64,000 bases of DNA from an uncultured Pseudomonadales bacterium (GTDB lineage: Bacteria; Pseudomonadota; Gammaproteobacteria; Pseudomonadales; UBA7434): contig CAZDEW010000003.1 of NCBI GenBank assembly GCA_964504585.1, forward strand, positions 13,960 to 77,959, given 5' to 3'. The stretch's first letter is position 1. Each line of letters starts with the position of its first letter. The translations under genes and the position numbers were made by a program. Positions 2,796-59,665 of this stretch are shown piece by piece. Below the pieces are notes generated by a model. It was given only the letters and a program-made list of their open reading frames with translations, searched no databases and was not told the DNA's origin.

Positions 2796-4454
2796 GTGCA
2801 ACCGCCGATTTCGTCCACAAAAAACCCGCTTCACGCCAATACTAAGAATTGTACCGAGACAAGTGCCGAGATAATTTGGAGCCGCTGCTGCGACATTCTC
2901 GCCAGTGAATTGCCGAGCCAGCAGTTTAATACCTGGATAAAAGTGCTCCAGCCTGTGCCGAACGACGTGGGTACAGGTGACGCCGGCAGAGAAGAGCTGG
3001 TTCTGGTGGCGCCCAACCGATTTATAAAGGATTGGGTGGAGAGCAAGTACCTGCCCCAGTTGGAGCGCACTTTAAAACTCTATTGTACTGGGAGTGGGAT
3101 CTCGACGGTTCGTCTGCAATTGGATACAGAGATGGCCTCTTTTGCTGTCGAATCAACGCCGCGCGATAGCGGCCCTGTTCCGTTACTGGTGAACGATAGC
3201 GCGATGACGCGGCGCCTCGAAGAAACCCGCGAGAGCCAAAGTGGCCGGTTAGATCAACTTGGTCCTGTTACTGACATACCTGATGAGATAGCCCCACAGC
3301 TGTCGTTTGGACCAGAAGATACCTTTTCGGGGGGCGAATCAGCTCAAGCGCGCGCGACAGAGGCATTTCAGTCTGCTTCGGTAGTGCCTTCCTCGCCCAG
3401 ACGTACGCAGGATAACGAAGTCTCGCAGATTCATCAGCACAATATTCTGTCCCGGTATCGCTTTGACAACTTCGTTGAGGGTAAATCCAATCAACTGGCC
3501 AGAGCGGCCGCGATCCAGGTCGTCGAAAACCCCAGTGGCTCTTACAACCCGCTATTCCTATACGGCGGTGTGGGTTTGGGTAAAACGCACTTGATGCATG
3601 CCGTCGGTAATGAAATAAAACGACGAAACCCAGGCGCCAACGTTGTCTACCTCCACTCCGAGAGGTTCGTTGGGGATATGGTTAAGGCCTTGCAGCTCAA
3701 TGCGATTAACGATTTCAAGCGCTACTACCGCTCGGTGGATGCGCTGTTGATCGATGATATCCAGTTCTTTGCGAACAAAGAGCGGTCACAGGAAGAGTTT
3801 TTCCATACGTTTAACGCCTTGCTGGAAGGTGGTCAGCAAATGATTTTCAGTTGTGATCGCTATCCAAAATCCATCACTGGGGTGGAAGAACGATTAAAGT
3901 CTCGATTCGGCTGGGGTTTGACCGTTCATATAGAGGCGCCAGAACTGGAAACGCGAGTCGCAATCTTAAAGCGGAAAGCGGAGCAGGAGGGCATTGCCAT
4001 ACCTGATGAATCTGCGTTTTTCCTTGCTGGAAAGGTGCGCGCAAACGTTAGGGAGCTAGAAGGTGCGCTGAAACGAGTCAACGCCAATGCTGAATTCCTA
4101 AAGGCGCCAATAACAGTTGATCTGATAAAGGATTCGTTGAAGGATCTGCTTGCCCTACAAGATAAAATGGTCACGATTGACAACATCCAAAGAACGGCCG
4201 CAGAGTATTTCAAAATAAAAATCGCGGACCTGCACTCTAAGCGGCGAAATCGCTCGGTCGCGCGGCCCCGCCAAGTTGCCATGGCTCTGGCAAAGGAGTT
4301 GACACAGCACAGCTTGCCCGAGATTGGCGACGCCTTTGGGGGGAGAGACCACACCACGGTGTTACATGCCTGTAAAAAGGTTAAAGAGCTCCGAGAGACG
4401 AATGCTGATGTGAGCGAAGATTATCATAATTTGATCAGACAGCTTTCAACCTGA
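2796..4454 (+). CDS. dnaA: chromosomal replication initiator protein DnaA
   Basis: 552-aa ORF. N-terminal [18 protein letters not shown]+ Walker [14 protein letters not shown], and C-terminal DNA-binding helix region ([18 protein letters not shown]...[11 protein letters not shown]). GTG at 2796 is the only in-frame start after upstream stops, with AGGGA 8 nt upstream. Confidence 0.95.
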
Positions 4455-4659
4455 TTATCCAGTCGTCTAAGACGTCTTTTCAATACACCGAAACTTTTCG
4501 AGTGCCGCTGTTTCAGCCCTATTTTTGCAGTAGTTTGTTCGTTGGGAAATTAGTTATACTCGCTTCAGTTTTAACTGATCTCACACAGTTAGCTGGTCCA
4601 GTTTCAACAAGGCCGAACTAGCTGTTGCCCGGTCGTCAAATTTCAGGAATACATCAATA

Positions 4660-5769
4660 ATGAAGTTTACGGTTTCTCGAGAAGCCCTGTTACAACCGCT
4701 ATCTTTGGTCGCTGGCGCAGTAGAGCGCCGGCAGACAATGCCGGTGCTGTCTAACATTTTATGTAAGGTCGAAGACGGCGTGTTGCTTATTACAGGAACC
4801 GATCTCGAAGTAGAGCTCAGCGCTAGTATCGATATTAATGACGCAACGGATGGTGCGATTACCGTGCCTGCGAGGAAGCTGCTGGATATTTGCAAGAGCT
4901 TACCCGAGCAATCTAATCTGCGTTTCTCCCTGAGTAGCGGCAAGGTTGTGATCAACGCGGGCAAAAGTCGATTTAGCCTTGCCACGCTACCAGCAGAAGA
5001 ATTCCCTGCCGTTCAGCGAGACGAAAGCAGCTTGACGGTTGAGCTGTCACAGAAAGACATACTTAGCCTGATACAGCGTACATCTTTTTCAATGGCACAG
5101 CAGGATGTGCGTTACTACCTCAATGGTATGCTCTGGGAAATAGATGACTCGCTGCTGCGAACTGTTGCCACAGACGGCCATAGGCTGGCCGTAACACACG
5201 CGGAAATAAAGGCCGGTGGCGGTAGTAAGCGCCAACTTATCCTTCCCAGAAAAGGAGTGCTTGAGCTAGCGCGCCTTATCGGTGGGGGTGATGCAAGTGA
5301 AATGATATCGGTAGAGTTCGGCTCTAATCATGTTCGTGTCGAAACCGGTCAAATGCTGTTTATTTCTAAATTGGTTGATGGCAAGTTTCCCGATTACGAA
5401 CGAGTGCTTCCGAAGGGTGGCGATAAGATTGTCAAAGCGGATCGGGCGGAACTGAAAGCAGCTTTACAGAGGGCCGCAATTCTTTCAAATGAGAAGTACC
5501 GCGGAGTGCGCTTTATCGTTTCCTCTGGCTTGATCAGCATACAGGCCAATAACCCCGAGCAAGAAGAGGCTAATGAAGAGGTTGTAGTCGACTACGATGG
5601 CCCGGAGCTTGAAATGGGGTTTAATGTTAACTATCTCATTGATGTGCTCGGTGTCCTCGAGACGGAGGGCACTTGCATTACGCTTTCTGATACCAGCAGC
5701 AGTGCGTTAGTTCAGGACGGTGATATGTCCCAGGACTCGCTTTACGTTGTTATGCCAATGCGCTTGTAG
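4660..5769 (+). CDS. dnaN: DNA polymerase III beta sliding clamp
   Basis: 369 aa, MKFTVSREALLQPLSLVAGAVERRQTMPVLSNIL... ending VVMPMRL. dnaA-dnaN-recF-gyrB synteny. Confidence 0.95.
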   Translation: MKFTVSREALLQPLSLVAGAVERRQTMPVLSNILCKVEDGVLLITGTDLEVELSASIDINDATDGAITVPARKLLDICKSLPEQSNLRFSLSSGKVVINAGKSRFSLATLPAEEFPAVQRDESSLTVELSQKDILSLIQRTSFSMAQQDVRYYLNGMLWEIDDSLLRTVATDGHRLAVTHAEIKAGGGSKRQLILPRKGVLELARLIGGGDASEMISVEFGSNHVRVETGQMLFISKLVDGKFPDYERVLPKGGDKIVKADRAELKAALQRAAILSNEKYRGVRFIVSSGLISIQANNPEQEEANEEVVVDYDGPELEMGFNVNYLIDVLGVLETEGTCITLSDTSSSALVQDGDMSQDSLYVVMPMRL

Positions 5770-5976
5770 ATCGGGGCTGGCGCTAGTTCTTGCTGGAAAT
5801 GCAGTGCCCACCCGGGGCTTTACACAAATGGGCAAAGCGCTCGTCAGCTAGTTTGCCTCCTGAAAAAGGGGGGGCTTCTCTCCTCTCCTCTCCGCTCTTA
5901 TGGCTGATCTCGGACCCCATCAGAAGTCGAATCTAAGAAAACCCTCTCCTTTTGCCGCCTTCGTTTTAACTCGTAT

Positions 5977-7182
5977 TTGTTTCACGTGAAACTTCTTAAG
6001 CTAGAGATTAAAGATATCAGAAATATTCGTACCGGCCATTTGGATGGCCTGATGGATGCCAATCTGATATTCGGAGAGAACGGTGCGGGAAAGACGTCGA
6101 TTCTAGAAGCGATCTTCTTTCTCGGCATGGCCAGATCGTTTCGATCATCCAAAATAAAGCCTTTTATTAACAACTCGTCCTCATCGTGTCGAGTTTACGC
6201 TGAATTTGTCGATGAACTTGGTCAGCCTCACCGAGCGGGAATTGAGCGAGGTCTTCGTGGCGGCTTCGCGATTAAAGTTGATGGCGCGCAGGTTTCGGCG
6301 GCATCAGAATTGGCAAGAATTTTCCCCGTGCAGCTTATCAATGCACAGTCGTTTGTTTTATTGGAAGGCAGCGCCAGAGAGCGCCGTAAGTTACTCGACT
6401 GGGGCGTGTTTCACGTGGAACCAGGATTTTTGGACGCCTGGCGACGGGTTCGTCGAGCACTTACCCAGCGAAACGGGTTGCTCAAGGAGGCGAAAAGGCG
6501 CCGTTTAATCGCGCCGGGTGCTAATTATGAGGCGCTTGTTGAACAAATTAGGCCGTGGGACCTGGAAATTGCTAAAAGCTCTGTGTTTATTGGGCGATCG
6601 CGCGAGCTTTATTTTGAGCGATTCGCCCGGTCATTTGAGCTGAGATTTGCAGAGTTGAGTCAGGGTAATTGTCCCGACGTCAAAATGGCATTGCTTAGCG
6701 GTTGGCCCGAGCAGGCGGTAAATGTCAGTGAGTTAGCCGCAGATGTTGAAAGTGGGGAGCAGTCCGCTATCAACGCTTATCTCGAAGCCTTGAGCGGCAA
6801 TTTACCCACAGACATCAAGCGCGGCACAACTTCGGTTGGCCCCCATAGAGCTGATGTATCTATTAGCGTCGATGGCGCGAAGGCGGGTGATATTCTCTCT
6901 CGAGGACAGCAGAAGCTTGTGGTGATTGCACTTAAGCTGGCACAGTGTTCACTTTTTATTGAAGATACGGGCCGAAAGCCCGTGCTATTGGCTGATGATT
7001 TGCCAGCAGAGGTTGATCGCAAGCATCAGGAAATACTGCTGACATCGTTAAGCAGGTTTGGAATGCAGTGCTTTTTCACCGCTCTTGAAGGCGATTTGCT
7101 GGGCCTGAGCGAGTGGCCACAAACCGATAGATGTGTGTTCCACGTGGAACAAGGTTCTATACAGGGGCTTTCGGTTTCTTAG
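5977..7182 (+). CDS. recF: DNA replication/repair protein RecF
   Basis: Walker A GENGAGKTSILEAI, typical RecF N-terminus (LKLEIKDIRNI). Start uncertain: TTG at 5977 or GTG at 5986, neither with a clear RBS. Confidence 0.9.
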   Translation: MFHVKLLKLEIKDIRNIRTGHLDGLMDANLIFGENGAGKTSILEAIFFLGMARSFRSSKIKPFINNSSSSCRVYAEFVDELGQPHRAGIERGLRGGFAIKVDGAQVSAASELARIFPVQLINAQSFVLLEGSARERRKLLDWGVFHVEPGFLDAWRRVRRALTQRNGLLKEAKRRRLIAPGANYEALVEQIRPWDLEIAKSSVFIGRSRELYFERFARSFELRFAELSQGNCPDVKMALLSGWPEQAVNVSELAADVESGEQSAINAYLEALSGNLPTDIKRGTTSVGPHRADVSISVDGAKAGDILSRGQQKLVVIALKLAQCSLFIEDTGRKPVLLADDLPAEVDRKHQEILLTSLSRFGMQCFFTALEGDLLGLSEWPQTDRCVFHVEQGSIQGLSVS

Positions 7183-7264
7183 CAGGGCTATTCGGCATCA
7201 TTATGTCGAATCTAGCTTTTATTACCCCTTTGTGCAGCGAGAGTACAACTACCCAACTTATATG

Positions 7265-7293
7265 TTGACGCGCGCGCGCGTGTTAAAGACAAT
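7265..7293 (+). promoter_or_regulatory. possible sigma70 promoter upstream of gyrB (TTGACG, 17 nt spacer, GACAAT)
   Basis: Hexamers read by eye. The spacer is largely an alternating CG tract. No experimental support. Confidence 0.25.
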
Positions 7294-7399
7294 AAAAGCG
7301 TTGCCAAACGATTGATTTTACAGCCATTTTTGGTTCACCGATCATCGCCTAGCGGGGGCGATCAAGGCCTCCATAAGTGTCAGAGTGAACAACTATTAA

Positions 7400-9886
<2,487 letters not shown>

Positions 9887-12300: not shown

Positions 12301-13416
12301 TTGCGGTTGAAAAAGATTATCCACGTCGATATGGATGCATTCTTCGCATCGGTAGAACAAAGGGATCTCCCTCGTTTGCGTGGTAAGCCGGTCATTGTGG
12401 GTGGTCAACCGGATAGTAGGGGAGTCGTTGCTGCGTGCAGCTACGAGGCAAGAAAGTATGGTGTGCACTCGGCAATGCCAAGTGCAATGGCTTATCGGCT
12501 TTGCCCGGACGCAGTATTTGTTAGGCCACGCTTTGACGTTTATCGTGAGGTATCACAAAGCGTTCACCAGATATTCGCTGAATTTACGGACCTTATTGAG
12601 CCGCTTTCGCTGGATGAGGCCTATCTCGACGTCACTGAATCCGGAGAGGCTCCCGGCGTTCGGCAAATGTCGTTTTTTGATGGCTCGGCAACGAGTGTCG
12701 CCACGCAAATTCGCAAGCGGATTTTCAAAGAGCTTGATCTAACAGCCTCTGCGGGCGTTTCTTACAATAAGTTTCTGGCAAAAATCGCATCAGATATCAA
12801 CAAACCGAACGGCATCTTTGTCATTAGGCCGGAGGATGCGCTTAGCTTTATCGCCAGCTTACCGGTTGGGAAGATTAACGGCATTGGCAGCGTCACAGAG
12901 GCTAAACTCAACGCCATCGGCGTTTACAACGGCGCCGATCTTAGAGAGCTGTCTTTAGAACAACTTATCGCCCAGTTTGGTAAGTCCGGCGATCGATTCT
13001 ATAAGCTGGCGCGAGGTGAGGATCTGCGTGAGGTAAAACCGAATAGAGTTAGAAAATCACTCGGTATTGAAAGGACGCTGTCTGGCGATTTGGACGATAT
13101 CGCAGAGGTTCGCAATAAAGTTATTGAGCTGGTAGAAAAGCTATCTACGTCGATGCATAAAAAAAATCTGCATGCCAAAACTATCACGTTGAAAATAAAG
13201 TATGGCGACTTTGTACAAATTACAAGGTCGAAAACCTTAAATAACTTCGTCAATAGTTTTGCGGCTGAGAGCAGCTTGATCGATGAGCTGCTGGAAAAAA
13301 CCGAAGTTGGATCGAAGCCCGTGCGACTTTTGGGTCTGTCTGTGTCTGGTTTTAAAAATGACCAGACATCACGGCCGCCCAGCGCTCTAACAAAATCGCA
13401 GTTGAGCTTATTCTGA
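12301..13416 (+). CDS. dinB: DNA polymerase IV (Y-family)
   Basis: KKIIHVDMDAFFASVEQRD...LSLDEAYLDVT motifs. Start is TTG at 12301 or 12307. Confidence 0.9.
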   Translation: MRLKKIIHVDMDAFFASVEQRDLPRLRGKPVIVGGQPDSRGVVAACSYEARKYGVHSAMPSAMAYRLCPDAVFVRPRFDVYREVSQSVHQIFAEFTDLIEPLSLDEAYLDVTESGEAPGVRQMSFFDGSATSVATQIRKRIFKELDLTASAGVSYNKFLAKIASDINKPNGIFVIRPEDALSFIASLPVGKINGIGSVTEAKLNAIGVYNGADLRELSLEQLIAQFGKSGDRFYKLARGEDLREVKPNRVRKSLGIERTLSGDLDDIAEVRNKVIELVEKLSTSMHKKNLHAKTITLKIKYGDFVQITRSKTLNNFVNSFAAESSLIDELLEKTEVGSKPVRLLGLSVSGFKNDQTSRPPSALTKSQLSLF

Positions 13417-32913: not shown

Positions 32914-34017
32914 ATGAGCCATGAATTATTGTTCCGCGCCATCGATCTTCCTAATCTATCTCTGAGAAATCGCTTGGTCATGGCCCCAATGACCCGCAGC
33001 AAGGCTGCTGGCGGGGTATTGAAGCAGTCGAATATTGACTATTACAGTCGTCGTGCTGAGGGCGGCATCGGGCTGATTATCAGTGAGGGCGCGTGCATAA
33101 ATCACGACGCAGCTTCAGGGTATCCTGATGTGCCTTTCATTGGACGCGACGATACGCTTGAGGGCTGGAAACAGTTAGCCGCTACTTTGAAAACTTTCGA
33201 TACCGCGCTCATGCCACAGTTATGGCACGTGGGAGGTGTTAGAAAGCCCGGAGTGGAGCCCGGCGGAAAGCTTCCCGGCTATAGTCCCTCCGGTCTGGCA
33301 GCACCGCATAAAATGGTCGGCAAGGCGATGGATCTTGAGGATATTGAACAAACAATCCAGGCTTACGCAGACGCCGCCTTGCAGGCCAGGCAAGCGGGCT
33401 GTGCGGGTGTTGAAATACATGGTGCTCACGGATATCTAATCGACCAGTTTTTCTGGTCAGAAACGAATTTACGCAAGGATCGCTACGGTGGCGATTTGCA
33501 GTCTCGATCAACGTTTGCGATCGAGGTTATAGCGGCTATCAGGCGCGCAGTCGGGGCTGATTTTGCAATTAGCTTCAGGTTCTCGCAATGGAAGCAACAA
33601 GATTACAGCGCGAGATTGTGCCAAACGCCGGAAGAATTGGGGCGGTTTGTACGACCACTGGCCGAGGCCGGTGTCGATATATTTCACTGCTCCACACGGC
33701 GTTTCTGGGAGCCAGAGTTCGAGGGCTCTCCGCTCAACCTTGCAGGATGGGTTAAACAACTAACGGGCAAGCCCACAATTACTGTTGGCAGTGTTGGGCT
33801 GAATGCCGATTTTCTGCCACGATCTGGGGGAGAAGCATTTCGCGAAGCAGGAGCAGCCGATCTCGACGAATTGATGTCCCGATTGCACAGGGATGAGTTT
33901 GACTTAGTGGGCGTTGGTCGGGCACTCATCGCGAATCCGGATTGGGCAAACAAAGTGCGTGACGGCAGATTTTCTGAGCTTGAAGGCTTTAGCCAGACAA
34001 TGCTTGGCTCACTCTAA
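32914..34017 (+). CDS. NADH:flavin oxidoreductase, Old Yellow Enzyme family
   Basis: LRNRLVMAPMTRS..., GVEIHGAHGYLIDQF, DLVGVGRALIANPDW. Confidence 0.8.
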   Translation: MSHELLFRAIDLPNLSLRNRLVMAPMTRSKAAGGVLKQSNIDYYSRRAEGGIGLIISEGACINHDAASGYPDVPFIGRDDTLEGWKQLAATLKTFDTALMPQLWHVGGVRKPGVEPGGKLPGYSPSGLAAPHKMVGKAMDLEDIEQTIQAYADAALQARQAGCAGVEIHGAHGYLIDQFFWSETNLRKDRYGGDLQSRSTFAIEVIAAIRRAVGADFAISFRFSQWKQQDYSARLCQTPEELGRFVRPLAEAGVDIFHCSTRRFWEPEFEGSPLNLAGWVKQLTGKPTITVGSVGLNADFLPRSGGEAFREAGAADLDELMSRLHRDEFDLVGVGRALIANPDWANKVRDGRFSELEGFSQTMLGSL

Positions 34018-34632: not shown

Positions 34633-34668
34633 AATTGCTCGGCCATCATGGAGTAAATCAAAGGCTCC

Positions 34669-35058
34669 CTAGTTTGAGATGCTGCGGGTGCGCCCCTGAG
34701 AATCGAGAGCCACTAACACGAAAAGACCTTCAGTCACCTTCAGCTTCCCCTCCTCGTTTTCGATCCAGACTTCTACAAATACCTGAATAGAACTCCGCCC
34801 TACCTTTACGATTTTGGTATAGAGGCTAACGAGGTCGCCGACCTGAATTGGAATAAGGAAGCTCATATTGTCCGCAGCGACGGTGATAACGCGACCTGCC
34901 GCGACTTTGCCCGCTGCAATAGTCGCCGCTGTATCCATTTGCGATACTAGCCAGCCACAGCTGATATCCCCATAGCTGTTGGTGTCTCTGGGCAACACCG
35001 GTAGTTGCAGTGAAAGCTCGCCATCCGGCAAGGGGTTTTCATCATTCTTCGGGTTCAT
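34669..35058 (-). CDS. acyl-CoA thioesterase (hotdog fold, YciA-like)
   Basis: 129 aa. DTNSYGDISCGWLVSQMD...MSFLIPIQVGDLV is typical of 4HBT/YciA thioesterases. Confidence 0.7.
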   Translation of the reverse strand: MNPKNDENPLPDGELSLQLPVLPRDTNSYGDISCGWLVSQMDTAATIAAGKVAAGRVITVAADNMSFLIPIQVGDLVSLYTKIVKVGRSSIQVFVEVWIENEEGKLKVTEGLFVLVALDSQGRTRSISN

Positions 35059-35212
35059 GACTGCTTAGTCTCCCTTCCTTACTGTGTTATCTGTATGGCT
35101 GGCTAGTTACTACAGCCCGAACTGCTGCAAGCTTTTTTTGCCACGCTTATAGCAAGTTTGCCCCCGCCGCAACAATAGCTTACATCACCCTGCGGCTCAT
35201 TATAGACCACCT

Positions 35213-36642
35213 TCAAAGGGTATCAGGTAGCCACGTTACTATCTCTGGCCAAACTGCCATCATTACCAACAGTGCCAGTTGAATAACAATAAATGGCAAC
35301 ACCCCGCGATATATTGTTTGCGTTGCGACGCTGTCTGGCGCAACGCCGCGTAGATAAAACAGGGCGAAACCGAAAGGCGGCGTTAGAAATGACGTTTGCA
35401 GATTCACTGCAATCATAATGCCCAGCCAGATTGGATCAAAGCCCATGACGAGTAGCACGGGCGCAACAATTGGTACGACGACAAAAGTGATCTCTATGAA
35501 ATCGAGAATAAAGCCTAGAAGGAAAATCGCCAACATCACCACCAGTAAAGCGCCGTATTTGCCGCCAGGCATATCGACAAATAAGCTATGCACGAGCTCG
35601 TCTCCACCGTAGCCACGGAAAACGAGCGAAAATACCGTAGCGCCAATCAAGATAAGAAAAACCATCGAGGTTATTTTCAATGAGGAGCGCGTAATATCTT
35701 TGAGTTGACTCCAGTTTAACTGTCGCCGAAAAGCAGCCAGACACAGTGCGCTAAACGCGCCGACACCGGCAGCCTCGGTGGGTGTTGCCGCTCCCGTTAG
35801 AATGGAGCCTAACACCAGTACAATTAACAGCACAGGCGGCAACAGCCCTTTCAGTAAAGGCAGTATTTCAATCGTTGTTTGAGTACGAGTTTGCTGCATG
35901 CTCTCTTTGGAAAATACCGCTATCGATATCAAATAGATCAGATATAGCGAGACTAAAAGTATTCCGGGAACCATGGCACCAATGATACGGTCTTCGGGTT
36001 AAATATACCTTGTGAGATTAAACCCGAAGACCGTATCAGTCGGTGACCTCTTTATTGGTCACCGACTGATACGGTCTTCGGGTTAAATATACCTTGTGAG
36101 ATTTGCGCGCCCTGATAGGCGGTTGAGAGTATGTCACCAAGCAGCACGAGGGCAATCGATGGTGGAATGATCTGGCCCAGAGTGCCAGTGGCTGCGATGG
36201 TTCCGGTTGATAGCGCAGGGCTGTAATTCTGTTTGAGCATCACCGGGAGAGCCATCAGGCCCATGGTAACGACGGTGGCGCCGACGATGCCGGTAGACGC
36301 GGCGAGTAGCGTGCCAACAATAACAACAGAAAATGCAAGACCGCCTCGAATGCCACCGAACACCTTTGCCATGTTTTCCAGAAGCTCTTCGGCGATCTTC
36401 GATTTCTCGAGCGTTACTCCCATCAACACAAAAAGGGGGACTGCGATCAGAGTGACGTTCGTCATAGTCCCATAGATGCGACTCGGTAAGGCGCCGAGCA
36501 GGGCGGGATCAAAGAGGTTGAAAATAGAGCCCATGAAAGCAAACAACAACGATACGCCCGCCAGTGTGAACGCCACTGGATAGCCCGCCAATAAAACAAG
36601 GCATATTGCAGCAAACATGATAAGCGGCAAAAACTCGGCCAT
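35213..36642 (-). pseudogene. dctM: TRAP transporter large permease (DctM/FcbT3-type), interrupted as assembled
   Basis: N-terminal 196 aa (36052..36642) and C-terminal 253 aa (35213..35974) are both DctM-like and collinear. They are separated by a stop and frame change inside a palindrome/duplication at 35983..36103. Confidence 0.8.
35983..36103. repeat. self-derived composite repeat inside dctM: 37-bp direct repeat plus 28-bp-arm perfect palindrome
   Basis: 35983..36019 is identical to 36067..36103. Arms 36021..36048 and 36057..36084 are perfect reverse complements around the loop tctttatt. 35983..36000 is also the reverse complement of 36021..36038. Confidence 0.95.
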
Positions 36643-36645
36643 GTC

Positions 36646-37179
36646 TTATGCCTCGCTAGTGCCGCGCAAGATAGTTTGAACTGCTTTTAGAGCTTCCGCC
36701 AAACCTTGCAGAAAAAGCAGAGAGCAGAAAATCGGTATTAGAGTTTTTAAAATAAACACCCCTGGAATGCCGCCAGCATCAGCGGACGCCTCCATGATGG
36801 TCCAGGATTGAGTGACATAAGGGAGGCTTATCCAGAACAAAAAAATCGCGAACGGAAGAAGAAAAAAGACGCTGCCCAGAAGGTTTATCCACGACTGAAA
36901 TCGAGCGCTGGCATTACGATAGATGATATCGACTCTGACATGGCCGTCTTCGCTGAGGGTGTATGCTGCGCCTAATAGAAAGATAGTCGCGTGTAAGTAG
37001 GTGACCGACTCCTGAAGGGCAATAGACCCCTCGTTGAAACCGTAGCGCAAGACGACGATGACGGTTTCAATAAGGGCCATCAACAGCAGCAACCAGGCGG
37101 TCGATTTTCCGAGTGTGTGTGTCAAGCGCTCAATCTGCCTAATAGACGTGCTTATAATCTGCGCATACTGGAAGTTCAT
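36646..37179 (-). CDS. dctQ: TRAP transporter small permease (DctQ/FcbT2-type)
   Basis: 177-aa 4-TM protein immediately upstream of dctM (4-nt gap). Confidence 0.75.
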   Translation of the reverse strand: MNFQYAQIISTSIRQIERLTHTLGKSTAWLLLLMALIETVIVVLRYGFNEGSIALQESVTYLHATIFLLGAAYTLSEDGHVRVDIIYRNASARFQSWINLLGSVFFLLPFAIFLFWISLPYVTQSWTIMEASADAGGIPGVFILKTLIPIFCSLLFLQGLAEALKAVQTILRGTSEA

Positions 37180-37359
37180 TGTTCATCTTGTTCGGTTTTT
37201 GGCTCAGCGTGACGATTATAGCGTTCAAATCCGCCGCTTATTGGGGGAGGTGCTACACTTTTTTAATACCTTGTTGATATTACCAGCATCGCGAGGGAAG
37301 GTATTTTAGGCAGCATGTATTTGTGCTGGCAAAGAGTAAGGCTACAAAGGGAAGTGTTT

Positions 37360-37590
37360 ATGAAATCGAATCGAATCATCAGTTTAGGCAGAGCGACTAC
37401 CTTGTTGTTGTCGATTGTGCTTTTGCAGGCTTGCGGTGGTGGTATGAATATCTCGGATCAGGAGCTTGTGAAGAAAATGACCGAGTGCAACGCAGAGCCT
37501 AACAAGACGCCGGGTATGGCAGTCTCATGCGGTAACTATATCGAAGAGTGCAAGCGCCGCGGACAGGAAACCGGCAACTACATCTGCTAG
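37360..37590 (+). CDS. small putative lipoprotein, cysteine-rich
   Basis: The internal ATG at 37360 gives MKSNRIISLGRATTLLLSIVLLQAC with a lipobox (LLQAC), followed by 4 further Cys. Confidence 0.45.
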   Translation: MKSNRIISLGRATTLLLSIVLLQACGGGMNISDQELVKKMTECNAEPNKTPGMAVSCGNYIEECKRRGQETGNYIC

Positions 37591-55978: not shown

Positions 55979-56308
55979 TTTCGCTCCAGTTGAGTTACTG
56001 AGCCATCGCTCGGCGATTGTTCTTCTTTCTTTTAAAACGCCCCCGAGGTTTGCTGGGTGCGCGCGATGATTTCATGGCCACAATTAAACGCCTTGCTCGA
56101 ATAGGAGGCAAGCTGCGCAACCGTAAAACAGTAATAATAACGAACACTTAGCATATGTTTTGAAGTTAATGTCTCATCTTTTGTGCCGAGAAACCAAAAG
56201 CGCGAAGCTCTACTGGTCATTGCGGGTAGACGCTACGAAATAGCCCGCTTTTCGCGTAACATTCTCGCTTTGAATCGCTTGTTCACGGTTTTGCCATAGT
56301 TGCTTTTG

Positions 56309-58477
56309 ATGGACGTTTCTAGACTCTTAGAAAATTTAAATGATGCCCAGCGTAATGCAGTCACCAGTGATAGTAAGCACTTACTAATACTGGCAGGCGC
56401 GGGCAGCGGTAAGACCAAGGCGCTGGTGCATCGTATTGCGTGGTTGATCCAGGTTGCCAATTGCTCCTCCTCCAGCCTGCTTGCGGTAACTTTTACCAAC
56501 AAGGCTGCAAAGGAAATGCGCTATAGAATAGGTGATTTAATGAAAGTGAGTACTCACGGCATGTGGGTCGGAACGTTTCATGGTATCGCCCATCGTCTGT
56601 TGAAAGCGCATTGGCACGATGCGGGCCTGCCTCAGAACTTCCAGATCATCGACAGCGAAGATCAGCTCCGTATGGTCAAGCGTATCGTGCGGGAGATGGA
56701 GCTCGATGAACAGCGCTTTTCACCAAAATCCCTGCAGTGGTATATCAATGGCTGTAAGGATGAGGGCAAGCGCGCCAGACATATCGAGGCCTATGACTAC
56801 TTTGAAAAAACCCAGCTCATGGTTTATGCAGAGTACGAGAAGGCCTGCTCGCGCGGCGGACAGGTCGATTTTGGCGAGCTACTGCTGCGATCACATGAAC
56901 TCTGGCTAGAGAAGCCCGAGTTGCTGAATCACTATCAGCAGCGATTTCGCCACATACTTGTGGACGAGTTCCAGGACACGAATACGATTCAATATGCCTG
57001 GCTCAGGGTACTCGCGGGAGCTCACACTGACGTGACCGTGGTTGGCGATGACGACCAATCAATCTACGGTTGGCGAGGCGCCAAAATTGCGAATATCCAG
57101 CAATTTTCCGATGACTTTCCAGACACGGAGCTCGTCAAGCTGGAGCAGAACTACCGTTCAACATCAACCATCCTCGATGCTGCGAACGCGGTTATTGCCA
57201 ACAATAATGGGCGCCTGGGTAAGGACCTGTGGACAGACCACGTGCATGGCGAGCCGATTCAGATTTACGCCGGATTTAATGAGCAGGACGAAGCGCGTTA
57301 CGTGGTTGATCGCATATCAAGTCTTTGCACTGAGGGCGCCAATTATCAGGATCATGCAATTCTCTACCGCTCAAACGCTCAGTCCAGGGTGTTTGAAGAG
57401 GCACTCATCAAGCTTGGTATGCCGTATCGAATCTATGGCGGGCAACGTTTCTACGACCGTATGGAGATTAAAAACGCGGTGGCGTACCTGCGCCTGGCTT
57501 ATCAGCATGACGATGACACCGCCTTCGAGAGAATCATTAATACGCCCACGCGCGGAATCGGAAGTAAGACGGTCGATACCATTCGATTCTATGCTAGAGA
57601 AAACGGATTGACGCTTTGGCGCGCTAGCAAGGCTTCGCTCGAAGCAACGGTTTTTTCTCCCCGTGCTGCAAAGGCTATTAAGGCCTTTCTGCAAATGATT
57701 GAAGAGCTTGGTGACTATATCACCGCCAACTCGCTGGAGCAGTCAATGGAAAGAGCGCTCGAGGTGAGCGATTTAATCGCGTTCCACGGCCGTGAGCCTG
57801 GCGAGAAGGGCCGCACAAGGGTTGAGAACTTGCAAGAGCTTCTTAGCGCTGCAAAGTTGTTCCAACCCGAAGAGGAATCTTTGGCAATACGTGAATTTCT
57901 CGATACCGCCGCTCTCGATGCGGGTGAACAACAAGCGGATGAACATACGGATGCTGTGCAGCTTATGACACTCCATTCCGCTAAAGGCCTCGAATTTCCA
58001 ACTGTCTTTCTACCGGGTTTGGAGGAAGGGCTGTTTCCGCATCGAAACTCTTCGGAAGACCCAGATCAGCTCGAGGAGGAGCGACGACTCTGCTATGTGG
58101 GTATTACCAGAGCAAGAAAAAATTTGACCATCTGTTATGCTGAGTCTCGGCGCTGGTACGGTCAGGAGCAATTCAATGCCGTCTCTCGTTTTGTTCGCGA
58201 AATTCCCGATCGGTGCGTCGAGGAAGTACGCCTTGATACCGCTGTTCGACGACCTGTTTTCAGCGCAGCGTCAAGAAGCGCTGCCGCAGCTGTCAGTGCC
58301 GGTGAAGACTTGGAAGCCGGTTTGATACTCGGGCAAAGAGTGAACCACAAGATTTTTGGCGATGGAGTTGTCTTGAATTTGGAGGGCAGCGGCCCTAACT
58401 CGCGCGTTCAAGTCAATTTTGACGGCGAGGGCAGCAAGTGGTTGGTCGCAGCTTTTGCGAATTTGGAACCGGTTTAA
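56309..58477 (+). CDS. uvrD: DNA helicase II UvrD
   Basis: MDVSRLLENLNDAQRNAV...ILAGAGSGKT..., DEFQDTN, VGDDDQSIYGWRGA, TLHSAKGLEF, YVGITRA. Confidence 0.94.
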   Translation: MDVSRLLENLNDAQRNAVTSDSKHLLILAGAGSGKTKALVHRIAWLIQVANCSSSSLLAVTFTNKAAKEMRYRIGDLMKVSTHGMWVGTFHGIAHRLLKAHWHDAGLPQNFQIIDSEDQLRMVKRIVREMELDEQRFSPKSLQWYINGCKDEGKRARHIEAYDYFEKTQLMVYAEYEKACSRGGQVDFGELLLRSHELWLEKPELLNHYQQRFRHILVDEFQDTNTIQYAWLRVLAGAHTDVTVVGDDDQSIYGWRGAKIANIQQFSDDFPDTELVKLEQNYRSTSTILDAANAVIANNNGRLGKDLWTDHVHGEPIQIYAGFNEQDEARYVVDRISSLCTEGANYQDHAILYRSNAQSRVFEEALIKLGMPYRIYGGQRFYDRMEIKNAVAYLRLAYQHDDDTAFERIINTPTRGIGSKTVDTIRFYARENGLTLWRASKASLEATVFSPRAAKAIKAFLQMIEELGDYITANSLEQSMERALEVSDLIAFHGREPGEKGRTRVENLQELLSAAKLFQPEEESLAIREFLDTAALDAGEQQADEHTDAVQLMTLHSAKGLEFPTVFLPGLEEGLFPHRNSSEDPDQLEEERRLCYVGITRARKNLTICYAESRRWYGQEQFNAVSRFVREIPDRCVEEVRLDTAVRRPVFSAASRSAAAAVSAGEDLEAGLILGQRVNHKIFGDGVVLNLEGSGPNSRVQVNFDGEGSKWLVAAFANLEPV

Positions 58478-58516
58478 ACCATTTTTACTATTGAGAAATT
58501 TTTCAGAGCGAAATTT

Positions 58517-59665
58517 ATGAGAAGTACGCCCAGAGCTTTGCTAGCCATTAAACGACTACAGGGTCATCGTGTTCTAACCACGTTGATAGCTTGTCTGCTA
58601 CTGATTTTCTTGAGTGCCTGTGGTGGTTCTGAGCCCACTTCCACAGGAGAAAACTCAGTTGCCGACAAAAAGTTTAAATGGAAGCTTGTAACCACATGGC
58701 AAAAGAACTTCCCGGGGCTGGGCACTGCACCTGAAAACTTCGCCCGACTCGTCAATGAAATGAGTGACGGCCGACTGCAGATTAAAGTATTCGCCGCCGG
58801 TGAGATTGTTCCCGCACTGGAGGTTTTTAGTGCCGTTTCAGGCGGCACTGCAGAGATGGGACACGGCGCCGCTTACTACTGGAAAGGGAAAATACCTTCT
58901 TCCGTGTTTTTTACATCGGTACCCTTTGGTATGAACGCTCAGGAGATGAACGGCTGGCTGCACTACGGAGGTGGCCTCGAGCTTTGGCGTGAGGCTTATG
59001 CGCCGTTCAATTTGATACCCTTTGCTGGTGGAAGCACGGGCGTGCAAATGGGTGGGTGGTTTAACCGGGAGGTTAATTCCCTGAATGACTTTGACGGCTT
59101 GAAGATGCGAATCCCCGGAATTGGCGGAGAGGTCTTCTCTAGAGCGGGCGGCACTGCCGTCAGCATGGCCGGTGGAGAAATCTACACCTCGATGCAAACA
59201 GGTGTAATCGATGCCACCGAATGGGTTGGCCCCTACAACGATCTTGCTTACGGCTTTGCGGATGTCGCTGAGTATTATTATGTACCAGGCTGGCACGAGC
59301 CAGGTGCGGTTCTAGAGTTCATAGTCAATGAAAGCGCTTACGCGGAGTTGCCCGCCGATCTACAGGCCATCGTTAAGGTTGCTGCCCGAGCAATCAATCA
59401 GGATATGCTAGACGAATATACTGCAAGAAATAATCAGGCGCTCAAACAACTACTTGATAAAGGTGTAGAGATTCGTGAATTTCCGCAGGATGTTGTTGCG
59501 GCGCTCTCTGAAATATCACAAGAGGTCTACGCTGAGAATGCGGAAAAAGATGCGTTATTCAAAAAAGTGTATGAGTCTTATTCCGTCTTTCAAAAAGATG
59601 TTAGTCAATACCACAGAATTAGCGAAGAAGCGTACTATGAGCTTCGTAACTCGATAGCACGATAA
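58517..59665 (+). CDS. TRAP transporter substrate-binding protein (DctP/FcbT1-type), orphan
   Basis: Signal/lipobox (FLSACGG), then KWKLVTTWQKNFPGLGTAPENFARLVNEMSDGRLQIKVF... No permease genes adjacent. Confidence 0.8.
   Translation: MRSTPRALLAIKRLQGHRVLTTLIACLLLIFLSACGGSEPTSTGENSVADKKFKWKLVTTWQKNFPGLGTAPENFARLVNEMSDGRLQIKVFAAGEIVPALEVFSAVSGGTAEMGHGAAYYWKGKIPSSVFFTSVPFGMNAQEMNGWLHYGGGLELWREAYAPFNLIPFAGGSTGVQMGGWFNREVNSLNDFDGLKMRIPGIGGEVFSRAGGTAVSMAGGEIYTSMQTGVIDATEWVGPYNDLAYGFADVAEYYYVPGWHEPGAVLEFIVNESAYAELPADLQAIVKVAARAINQDMLDEYTARNNQALKQLLDKGVEIREFPQDVVAALSEISQEVYAENAEKDALFKKVYESYSVFQKDVSQYHRISEEAYYELRNSIAR

What the first reader, a model, noticed from the sequence alone, without database searches (positions are those of the whole stretch)
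35975..36110. TRAP large-permease gene (dctM) broken by a palindrome plus direct duplication built from its own sequence
DctM is present as two collinear minus-strand ORFs: an N-fragment at 36052..36642 and a C-fragment at 35213..35974. The DNA at the break contains no foreign sequence. It consists of three parts. (a) A perfect 37-bp direct repeat, 35983..36019 = 36067..36103 (tgatacggtcttcgggttaaatataccttgtgagatt). (b) A perfect inverted repeat with 28-bp arms (36021..36048 and 36057..36084) around the 8-nt loop tctttatt. (c) A further 18-bp inverted pair, 35983..36000 and 36021..36038. The plus strand at 36021..36059 reads AAC CCG AAG ACC GTA TCA GTC GGT GAC CTC TTT ATT GGT, which is NPKTVSVGDLFIG. 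That is exactly the peptide needed to join the N-fragment (...GIFNPKTVSVGD, then Q-stop) to the in-frame lead of the C-fragment (..IGAMVPGILLV..), but it lies on the non-coding strand. Replacing the 74-nt block 35983..36056 with TAAAGA would regenerate an uninterrupted permease of about 450 aa with the junction SVGDLFIGAMVPG, which I recall as typical of this family. The net change is +68 nt, not a multiple of 3, so the gene is inactivated as assembled. An inverted copy plus a direct copy of adjacent sequence, joined at 1-2 nt microhomologies, is the footprint expected from strand-switch (fold-back) template switching during replication. It could also be a fold-back or chimeric assembly artefact. 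No single inversion between the repeats restores the frame, so a simple invertible switch looks unlikely.
Basis: partly seen in the sequence, partly recalled or inferred. Interest (0 to 1): 0.7.

Follow-up and report, generated by a model that had tools for sequence, protein, structure and literature searches.

The report
Transporter gene broken by template-switch mutation
A marine biofilm bacterium's nutrient-uptake gene (dctM) was knocked out when DNA copying jumped between strands and pasted in an inverted and a direct copy of the gene's own sequence; the same strain with the intact gene is found in a neighbouring sample, so this is a clear natural example of a known mutation type, not a new system.

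Summary
There is a perfect 37-nt direct repeat, a perfect 28-bp-arm palindrome with loop TCTTTATT, and an 18-bp inverted pair, and nothing else like it in the 64-kb window. An intact 453-aa DctM identical to it at every residue sits on metagenome contigs (L011, L051) that have no mismatch to the window over the 11.7 kb compared, apart from this block. Every other relative, down to 62% identity, is unsplit.

Two other assemblers reproduce the rearranged junctions in another biofilm metagenome of the same study (L001, L002). In a third sample, both assemblers break exactly at the block. Every base of the block is templated by the ancestral allele on one strand or the other, except one base at 36020. 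Junction microhomologies are 3, about 3 and 1 nt.

Best reading: a recent, real, population-polymorphic complex template-switch mutation with three junctions. It inactivates dctM irreversibly, because no inversion or repeat deletion restores the frame. A library or assembly artefact is less likely but cannot be excluded without reads. The mutation class is known and the gene is ordinary, so interest is modest.

The parts
36052..36642 (-). dctM N-terminal fragment (196 aa, ends ...SVGDQ*). The stop TAA lies inside the inverted loop octamer.
   Evidence: ORF. PF06808 DctM, 105 bits. The exact same product is encoded on L001 and L002.
35213..35982 (-). dctM C-terminal part. The ORF from ATG is 35213-35974 (253 aa), preceded by the in-frame ancestral lead ..IGA. 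No convincing ribosome-binding site precedes the ATG.
   Evidence: Upstream sequence shown. The reconstruction matches TIGR00786 dctM full length, 335 bits against a 268 cut-off.
36057..36103 (.). Ancestral segment B*-C*-D* in its original place. Its last 37 nt (36067-36103) form the right copy of the direct repeat, and 36057-36084 is the right arm of the palindrome.
   Evidence: Collinear with the intact allele L011.
36049..36056 (.). Loop octamer TCTTTATT. This is the ancestral coding-strand sequence, now on the opposite strand (inverted relative to the intact allele). Junction J1 is at 36056|36057, with GGT/ACC microhomology at 36057-36059.
36021..36048 (.). Inverted (reverse-complement) copy of the ancestral AACCCGAAGACCGTATCAGTCGGTGACC. 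This is the left arm of the 28-bp palindrome.
36020..36020 (.). The single base (A on the + strand) that neither ancestral strand templates at junction J2. It is either a 1-nt filler or a misincorporation next to a 3-nt ATT/AAT microhomology.
   Evidence: The two greedy decompositions. The 32-nt arms at 97%.
35983..36019 (.). Duplicated direct copy (C*-D*, 37 nt). Junction J3 is at 35982|35983, where 16 ancestral nt (TAAAGAGGTCACCGAC on the + strand) are skipped with 1-nt microhomology.
36646..37179 (-). dctQ (TRAP small permease), intact, immediately upstream in the same operon.
   Evidence: PF04290 DctQ is assigned to the identical product on L001 and L002. Weak YiaM match.

Best explanation
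This is a recent, real loss-of-function allele of the TRAP large-permease gene dctM in an uncultured marine-biofilm gammaproteobacterium, made by a complex replication template-switch mutation.

Relative to the ancestral allele U-D-C-B-A-W (coding sense), the derived allele is U-D-C-B-A*-B*-C*-(1 nt)-D-C-TT-W. An inverted copy of C-B-A was written in, D-C was copied a second time, and 16 nt (B plus six bases of A) were skipped. The net change is +68 nt. It gives a stop codon after residue 196 and a frameshift.

The most economical path is a single unstable synthesis episode on the leading strand, which moves in the + direction away from the nearby origin:
1. The strand slips 16 nt forward (J3).
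2. It copies 37 nt.
3. It crosses to the lagging-strand template at an ATT/AAT microhomology, with one odd base (J2).
4. It copies 36 nt backwards.
5. It returns to its own template at a GGT microhomology (J1).

Shown: the anatomy, the ancestral allele, the same-strain background, the loss of frame, and the irreversibility by simple recombination. Inferred: the in-vivo origin, the order of switches, the strand involved, and whether this was one event or two. The confidence of 0.65 is for the single-episode in-vivo reading. Adding the two-step in-vivo rival brings 'real mutation' to about 0.8.
For: The ancestral allele exists in the same strain. L011 has no mismatch to the window over 10,586 nt upstream and 1,150 nt downstream of the block, yet carries an intact dctM. 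L051, from another sample (S085), also reads straight through the junction. P0121 equals the reconstruction at 453/453.

Different software reproduces the derived allele. metaSPAdes scaffold L001 (S088) and MEGAHIT contig L002 carry J1 and J2 identically, and L001 reaches J3. The junction k-mers share only 1-3 nt with native sequence, so a de Bruijn graph cannot create them without reads that contain them (sequence logic).

In a third sample (S087), two assemblers both break at the block, while the sample carrying the intact allele assembles through it.

The libraries were ordinary 350-bp Illumina libraries, and the text search of the paper found no occurrence of 'amplification'.

Every base but one is templated locally, with 3, about 3 and 1 nt of microhomology, which is the signature described for template-switch mutations (PMC8794818; PMC7202029 and PMC10766183).

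The inverted copy contains the 16 nt that are missing from the adjacent direct copy. A snap-back on that nascent strand therefore cannot have templated it, which points to the opposite parental strand.

dnaN and recF lie at 4.6-7.2 kb on the + strand and GC skew is positive on that strand. This puts the + sense as the leading strand and dctM head-on to replication.
Against: Only the window's contig spans all three junctions and continues into the C-terminal half. L001 stops 4 nt past J3 with one mismatch (..ATCATTCG), so J3 has a single clean witness.

L001 and L002 are short contigs that end inside the block, and S088 has coverage gaps. In that sample the allele may therefore rest on very few reads.

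I could not show that the window's record comes from a different library than S088. If all three assemblies share one read set, the replication across assemblers does not exclude a chimeric library molecule.

A three-junction event is more complex than the standard two-junction template-switch model.

S087's N-side contigs end 17 nt before the expected allele divergence point, which my model does not explain.
Confidence: 0.65

Rival explanations
1. This is an in-vitro or assembly artefact. A chimeric library fragment (fold-back or strand-switch during end repair or PCR) was incorporated at a low-coverage locus, and every assembly built from that read set inherited it. The organism's real sequence is the intact allele.
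For: Library preparation is known to produce chimeric reads that carry inverted copies of nearby sequence (PMC10908179). L001 and L002 terminate inside the block and come from a sample with coverage gaps. The intact allele is found in an otherwise identical background. Independence of the window's read set from S088 is not established.
Against: Such artefacts are reported at low variant allele frequency, and a simple fold-back does not return to the forward strand. Here there are two strand switches plus a 16-nt skip, after which the sequence continues correctly for 35 kb. The window's contig is reported as about 79 kb, so coverage there was good. A minority chimera should then have been pruned, or should have broken the contig. 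No contig from S088 carrying the intact allele was found by exact-protein look-up. A third sample (S087) fails to assemble at exactly this block with two assemblers. No whole-genome amplification is described.
Confidence: 0.18
2. The allele arose in two separate in-vivo events. First came a classical two-junction template switch giving an in-frame 84-nt insertion (U-D-C-B-A*-B*-C*-x-D-C-B-A-W) that is already null because of the TAA in the loop. Later, a 16-nt deletion removed part of the second palindrome arm, for example after hairpin processing.
For: The start-to-start spacing of the direct repeat is exactly 84 nt, or 28 codons. The 84-nt intermediate is what an ordinary four-switch-point event, or a nascent-strand snap-back, would give. 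The intermediate would hold three copies of the 28-nt C-B unit and two overlapping palindromes, which are expected to be unstable (established knowledge on palindrome instability; review PMC7999016 listed). L001's last bases (..ATCATTCG) are one mismatch away from the intermediate's ..ATCAGTCG, the same distance as from the window's ..ATCATTGG.
Against: No contig carrying the 84-nt intermediate was recovered. The flanks are identical to the intact allele over the 11.7 kb compared, which leaves very little time for two successive events. J3's 1-nt microhomology fits an extra slip within the same low-processivity episode equally well.
Confidence: 0.15
3. This is a programmed or reversible switch: an invertible element, or phase variation of the transporter, acting through the inverted and direct repeats.
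For: Both 'on' and 'off' alleles coexist in one strain background across samples of one study. Perfect repeats flank the block.
Against: Flipping the loop, either palindrome or the outer arms leaves the length at 1430 nt (mod 3 = 2) with early stops. Deleting between the 37-nt repeats gives 1346 nt, also out of frame. None of 120 homologues, nor the 27 genome loci, shows a split or a pre-existing long inverted repeat here. The repeats are made of the gene's own coding sequence, and the flanking genes are not recombinases: dctQ on one side and a YciA-type thioesterase on the other.
Confidence: 0.02

Closest known systems
Template-switch mutations (the four-switch-point model of Loytynoja and Goldman; Monttinen and Loytynoja 2022, PMC8794818) and quasipalindrome-associated template-switch mutations in E. 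coli (Ripley; Lovett lab, e.g. PMC7202029)
   Same: The derived allele carries a reverse-complement copy of adjacent ancestral sequence. This creates a perfect hairpin de novo, with short microhomologies at the switch points. The inverted loop fits a switch to the complementary parental strand rather than a nascent-strand snap-back.
   Different: The classical events have two junctions and usually perfect a pre-existing imperfect palindrome over a few bases. Here the ancestral sequence offers only a 3-bp ACC/GGT stem. The inverted tract is 36 nt, a 37-nt direct duplication accompanies it, and a third junction skips 16 nt.
Microhomology-mediated, multi-switch replicative rearrangements (FoSTeS/MMBIR; cross-fork leading-to-lagging template switching as in the ODIRA model, PMC10766183)
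   Same: There are several serial template switches in one locus. Templated insertions occur in both direct and inverted orientation, with 1-3 nt of microhomology and one apparent misincorporation at a junction. The switch runs between the leading and lagging templates at a fork.
   Different: Those models were developed for kilobase-to-megabase copy-number changes, mostly in eukaryotes. This event spans about 90 nt inside one bacterial gene and leaves no amplification.
TRAP transporter large permease DctM (TIGR00786 / PF06808)
   Same: The reconstructed protein matches the family model end to end. It sits downstream of dctQ, as in all relatives found.
   Different: In the window the gene is split into 196-aa and 253-aa ORFs and is presumably non-functional. 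No dctP is adjacent, here or in the relatives.
Inverted-repeat chimeric reads from NGS library preparation (PMC10908179) and palindromic chimeras from whole-genome amplification (PMC6218980)
   Same: These also place an inverted copy of neighbouring sequence next to its source, joined at short homologies.
   Different: Such artefacts are low-frequency, typically have a single junction, and do not resume the forward sequence. Here three junctions are embedded in a long, otherwise error-free contig and are reproduced by other assemblers.

Membership tests
TRAP transporter large permease DctM (TIGR00786 / PF06808) | Full-length match to the family model above the curated cut-off | tested here: met
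   The reconstructed 453-aa protein scores 335.1 bits against TIGR00786 (cut-off 268.45), covering profile positions 1-405 of 405. The N-fragment alone matches PF06808 at 105 bits.
TRAP transporter large permease DctM (TIGR00786 / PF06808) | Uninterrupted reading frame (a functional gene) | tested here: not met
   The window has a stop after codon 196 and a net +68 nt. It is a pseudogene of this family. The intact form is on L011 and L051.
TRAP transporter large permease DctM (TIGR00786 / PF06808) | Partner subunits DctQ and DctP | tested here: inconclusive
   DctQ is adjacent (36646-37179). The only DctP found in the window lies 22 kb away (58517-59665, PF03480, 208 bits). Relatives also lack an adjacent DctP.
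Template-switch mutation (replicative strand switch) | The derived sequence is explained by a reverse-complement copy of nearby ancestral sequence, with a known ancestral allele | tested here: met
   Exact decomposition against the same-strain intact allele L011 shows 36 nt copied in reverse complement and all other bases collinear, except one.
Template-switch mutation (replicative strand switch) | Short microhomology at the switch points | tested here: met
   J1 has 3 nt. J2 has 3 nt with an adjacent mismatch, or else a 1-nt filler. J3 has 1 nt (overlap of the left-to-right and right-to-left decompositions).
Template-switch mutation (replicative strand switch) | One switch-and-return (two junctions) suffices | tested here: not met
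   Three junctions are needed: a 16-nt skip accompanies the switch and return. It therefore works like a template switch but is a complex, multi-switch variant, or else two events.
Quasipalindrome-correction hotspot (E. coli type) | A pre-existing imperfect inverted repeat that the mutation perfects | tested here: not met
   The ancestral allele has only ACC...GGT (3 bp) around TCTTTATT. The 28-bp stem is created de novo.
Mobile-element insertion (IS, MITE or REP) with target-site duplication | Foreign DNA between the duplicated target sites | tested here: not met
   The 47 nt between the direct repeats are entirely the gene's own sequence in reverse complement, plus 10 nt of forward sequence. 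The repeat occurs nowhere else in the window.
Site-specific invertible or excisable switch | Recombination between the repeats restores a functional gene | tested here: not met
   All five inversions tested, and the deletion between the direct repeats, stay out of frame.
Sequencing or assembly artefact | The junctions are specific to one assembler | tested here: not met
   The same junctions appear in a metaSPAdes scaffold (L001) and a MEGAHIT contig (L002).
Sequencing or assembly artefact | The junctions are confined to one library or a few duplicate fragments | not testable with these tools
   No read-level data are available. There is indirect evidence for a further library: S087 breaks at the block in two assemblers. 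The mapping of S0xx names to SRR runs is inferred only.

The most novel reading that the evidence does not exclude
The dctM locus may be a recurrent structural-mutation hotspot, or a target of adaptive gene loss, in natural biofilm populations of this strain. The gene is head-on to replication about 36 kb from the origin. Besides the allele in the window, sample S087 breaks 17 nt before the expected divergence point in two assemblers, which could indicate a further variant. Sample S079 yields a scaffold (L016) that joins unrelated sequence to dctM at window 35407. Several independent disruptions of one transporter gene in sister biofilms would make this a field example of head-on-conflict mutagenesis or of selection against the transporter.
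Probability: 0.1. Interest if true: 0.55.

Novelty: new member of a known kind. Interest (0 to 1): 0.27.

Why it matters
This is a clean natural case of a complex template-switch mutation in an uncultured bacterium. The ancestral and derived alleles are both captured in the same strain background, with no flanking differences over the 11.7 kb compared, so every junction can be read without inference about ancestry. Such cases help calibrate models of how perfect hairpins and small inverted duplications arise in bacterial genomes.

It also has practical uses. It flags a pseudogene that annotation would report as two DctM fragments. It also marks a spot where short-read assemblers break.

It reveals no new biological system, and the affected gene is an ordinary transporter subunit.

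Tried and rejected
- Mobile element or foreign insert: rejected, because everything is locally templated.
- Invertible or excisable switch: rejected by explicit tests of five inversions and the repeat deletion.
- Assembler-specific artefact: rejected, because the junctions recur in metaSPAdes and MEGAHIT contigs.
- Similar structures elsewhere in the window, as a sign of a systematic artefact or process: none found.
- Exact-protein look-up of the 253-aa C-fragment: nothing on record, so no other contig in the collection spans the whole rearranged allele.
- JGI metagenome scan with a 25-mer shared by both alleles: 0 hits.
- GTDB species-representative genomes: no genome of the same species. The best hit was 74% identical, and all 27 loci were unsplit.
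- Split, still-functional permease: considered unlikely, because the C-fragment ATG has no credible ribosome-binding site. Not testable here.
- Nascent-strand snap-back as a single event: rejected on sequence logic, because the inverted copy contains 16 nt that the adjacent nascent copy lacks.
- Mapping ERZ and S0xx names to SRR runs from the papers: only partly possible.

Full report
**1. Observation**

- 35983-36019 and 36067-36103 are identical (37/37).
- 36021-36048 and 36057-36084 are perfectly complementary (28/28) around the loop TCTTTATT.
- 35983-36000 and 36021-36038 are perfectly complementary (18/18).
- The + strand at 36021-36059 translates to NPKTVSVGDLFIG.
- The two minus-strand ORFs are 36052-36642 (196 aa...SVGDQ*) and 35213-35974 (253 aa).

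Whole-window scans found no other close direct repeat of 18 nt or more, and no comparable inverted repeat. As single-stranded DNA the region folds at -39.9 kcal/mol, z = -9.4 against shuffles. This is not a chance feature.

**2. The gene**

Replacing 35983-36056 with TAAAGA gives a 453-aa open frame. It matches TIGR00786 (the DctM subfamily) over the whole profile, at 335 bits against a cut-off of 268. dctQ lies immediately upstream at 36646-37179. A YciA-type thioesterase lies downstream.

**3. The ancestral allele exists, in the same strain**

A protein search with the reconstruction returned P0001, which is 453 aa and 99% identical. Its cluster-mate P0121 is identical to the reconstruction at all 453 residues.

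P0121 is encoded on L011/L050 (ENA ERZ27264718, a 24-kb MEGAHIT contig). That contig has no mismatch to the window over 10,586 nt upstream of the block and 1,150 nt downstream. The block is the only difference in 11.7 kb.

L051, a metaSPAdes scaffold from sample S085, also reads straight through ...GTCGGTGACCTCTTTATTGGTGCCATGG.... So do L003 and L004, from a 99.4% relative in a laboratory-cultured biofilm.

All other relatives are unsplit. These are the 86% homologue on six Logan contigs with the same synteny, 120 proteins down to 68% identity, and 27 genome loci. The motif GDLF[IVM]GA..PG is present in 119 of 122 homologues.

**4. The rearranged allele is not private to one assembler**

The exact 196-aa N-fragment is encoded on two contigs: L001 (ERZ23498988, sample S088, metaSPAdes) and L002 (ERZ27264738, MEGAHIT). 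Both carry J1 and J2 exactly as in the window. L001 reaches 4 nt past J3 and then ends with one mismatch. L002 ends inside the second direct-repeat copy.

In sample S087, both a metaSPAdes scaffold (L019) and a MEGAHIT contig from ERZ27264745 (L052) stop at the same base, window 36074. The C-side contigs start at 35983 (L012) and 35979 (L013). L012's first base is exactly the first base shared by the two alleles.

**5. The samples**

The samples belong to PRJNA438384 (Zhang et al. 2019, PMC6355793).
- BioSample SAMN08714533 pools 101 separate biofilm metagenomes.
- Libraries had 350-bp inserts and were sequenced as 150-bp paired ends on HiSeq.
- A text search of the paper found no occurrence of 'amplification'.
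- SRR6869051-55 are Red Sea biofilms (PMC10689801).
- L014 (S088) and L015 (SRR6869055) start at the same base, so S088 is probably SRR6869055. This is an inference.

**6. Anatomy**

Naming the parts in coding sense:
- D = AATCTCACAAGGTATATTT
- C = AACCCGAAGACCGTATCA
- B = GTCGGTGACC
- A = TCTTTATT
- W = GGTGCC...
- An asterisk marks the reverse complement.

The ancestral allele is U-D-C-B-A-W. The window reads U-D-C-B-A*-B*-C*-T-D-C-TT-W.

Greedy exact decomposition from both ends shows that every base is templated by the ancestral allele on one strand or the other, apart from the single T (A on the + strand, 36020).

The three junctions are:
- **J1** (36056|36057): 3 nt of microhomology, ACC/GGT.
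- **J2** (36019-36021): either a 1-nt filler, or 3 nt (AAT/ATT) next to one misincorporated base.
- **J3** (35982|35983): 1 nt of microhomology.

There is no foreign DNA, so a mobile-element insertion is excluded.

**7. Consequences**

The gene is 1430 nt long (mod 3 = 2), with a stop at codon 197. Inverting the loop, either palindrome or the outer arms does not restore the frame. Deleting between the 37-nt repeats also fails, because it yields the ancestral sequence minus 16 nt. The allele is therefore a dead end, not a switch.

**8. Mechanism (inferred)**

The window begins in the origin region. dnaN is at 4660-5769 and recF at 5977-7182, both on the + strand. GC skew is positive on the + strand in seven of the eight 8-kb bins. 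Forks therefore pass this locus in the + direction, the + sense nascent strand is the leading strand, and dctM is head-on to replication.

The inverted copy (C-B-A on the + strand) contains the 16 nt that the neighbouring left direct copy lacks. It also carries the loop octamer in ancestral coding orientation. It must therefore have been copied from the opposite parental strand, not from the nascent strand folding on itself, unless two separate events occurred.

The simplest single-episode path on the leading strand is:
1. Slip 16 nt forward (J3).
2. Copy C*-D*.
3. Anneal by ATT/AAT to the lagging-strand template (J2, with one misincorporated base).
4. Copy C-B-A back towards the origin.
5. 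Return by GGT to the proper template (J1) and carry on.

This is the logic of template-switch mutations (PMC8794818; E. coli quasipalindrome work, PMC7202029). It also matches cross-fork leading-to-lagging switching (PMC10766183), with one extra slip of the kind seen in multi-switch FoSTeS/MMBIR events (established knowledge).

A two-step history is the main mechanistic rival. An in-frame 84-nt switch-and-return insertion would have come first, and a 16-nt deletion later. The 84-nt repeat spacing and the ambiguous last bases of L001 are compatible with it.

**9. Real or artefact?**

Evidence for a real allele:
- The junction k-mers cannot arise in a de Bruijn graph without reads that contain them.
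- Two further assemblers reproduce them.
- The window's contig is long, about 79 kb, and otherwise agrees base for base with independent assemblies.
- No intact-allele contig was found from S088.
- S087 fails at the block, whereas S085, with the intact allele, assembles through.
- Known library chimeras are low-frequency and do not resume the forward sequence.

Evidence against:
- Only the window spans J3 cleanly.
- S088 is thinly covered.
- I could not prove that the window's reads are independent of S088.

My estimates:
- Real in-vivo mutation: about 0.8 in total, split roughly 0.65 for one episode and 0.15 for two steps.
- Artefact: about 0.18.
- Programmed switch: about 0.02.

**10. Comparison and novelty**

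The event works like a template-switch mutation. It fails two features of the classical quasipalindrome type: there is no pre-existing quasipalindrome, and it has three junctions rather than two. It is best filed as a complex, multi-switch instance of a known mutational class that disrupts an ordinary DctM gene.

It is a tidy, fully resolved natural example, but it is neither surprising to a specialist nor a new system.

**11. Unexplained**

In S087 the N-side contigs end at the same base in two assemblers, 17 nt before the alleles diverge.

Scaffold L016 (S079) joins 117 nt of unrelated sequence to dctM at window 35407.

Either could hint at further variants at this locus. Both need reads.

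Noticed in passing
L016 nt 1-117, joined to window 35407: An 871-nt scaffold from another biofilm sample (S079) matches window 35407..34654 at 100%. Its first 117 nt match nothing in the window or in any fetched locus. It is either a chimeric scaffold or a second, independent disruption of dctM.
   Followed up: partly
window 36074 (ends of L019 and L052); window 35983 and 35979 (starts of L012 and L013): In sample S087, metaSPAdes and MEGAHIT both end the N-side contig at the same base, 17 nt before the intact and rearranged alleles diverge. The metaSPAdes C-side contig starts exactly at the first base the two alleles share. A simple two-allele bubble does not explain this.
   Followed up: partly
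window 2796-9886: The window starts in the replication-origin region. dnaN (4660-5769) and recF (5977-7182) were confirmed by Pfam. The ORFs at 2796-4454 and 7430-9886 are in the positions expected for dnaA and gyrB, but were not scanned. GC skew is positive on the + strand.
   Followed up: partly
window 12301-13416 (+): A Y-family (DinB / Pol IV-like, IMS family) translesion polymerase gene. No link to the rearrangement was shown.
   Followed up: no
window 56300-59665 (+): A DctP-family solute-binding protein (58517-59665, PF03480) follows a 725-aa ORF (56300-58477) that was not scanned. This may be a second TRAP system. The dctQM pair at 35-37 kb has no adjacent dctP, here or in the 86% relatives (L005-L010).
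   Followed up: partly
window 32914-34017 (+): An Old-Yellow-Enzyme-family flavin oxidoreductase sits between the Rv2949c-like (chorismate-lyase-like) gene and the shikimate dehydrogenase gene in this strain (also seen on L012). It is absent from that position in the 86%-identical relatives L005-L010, so gene content differs there.
   Followed up: no
window 37315-37590 (+): A small ORF with a lipoprotein-like N-terminus and no Pfam match. Other assemblies call a 76-77-aa gene at this position next to dctQ, including the 86% relatives.
   Followed up: no
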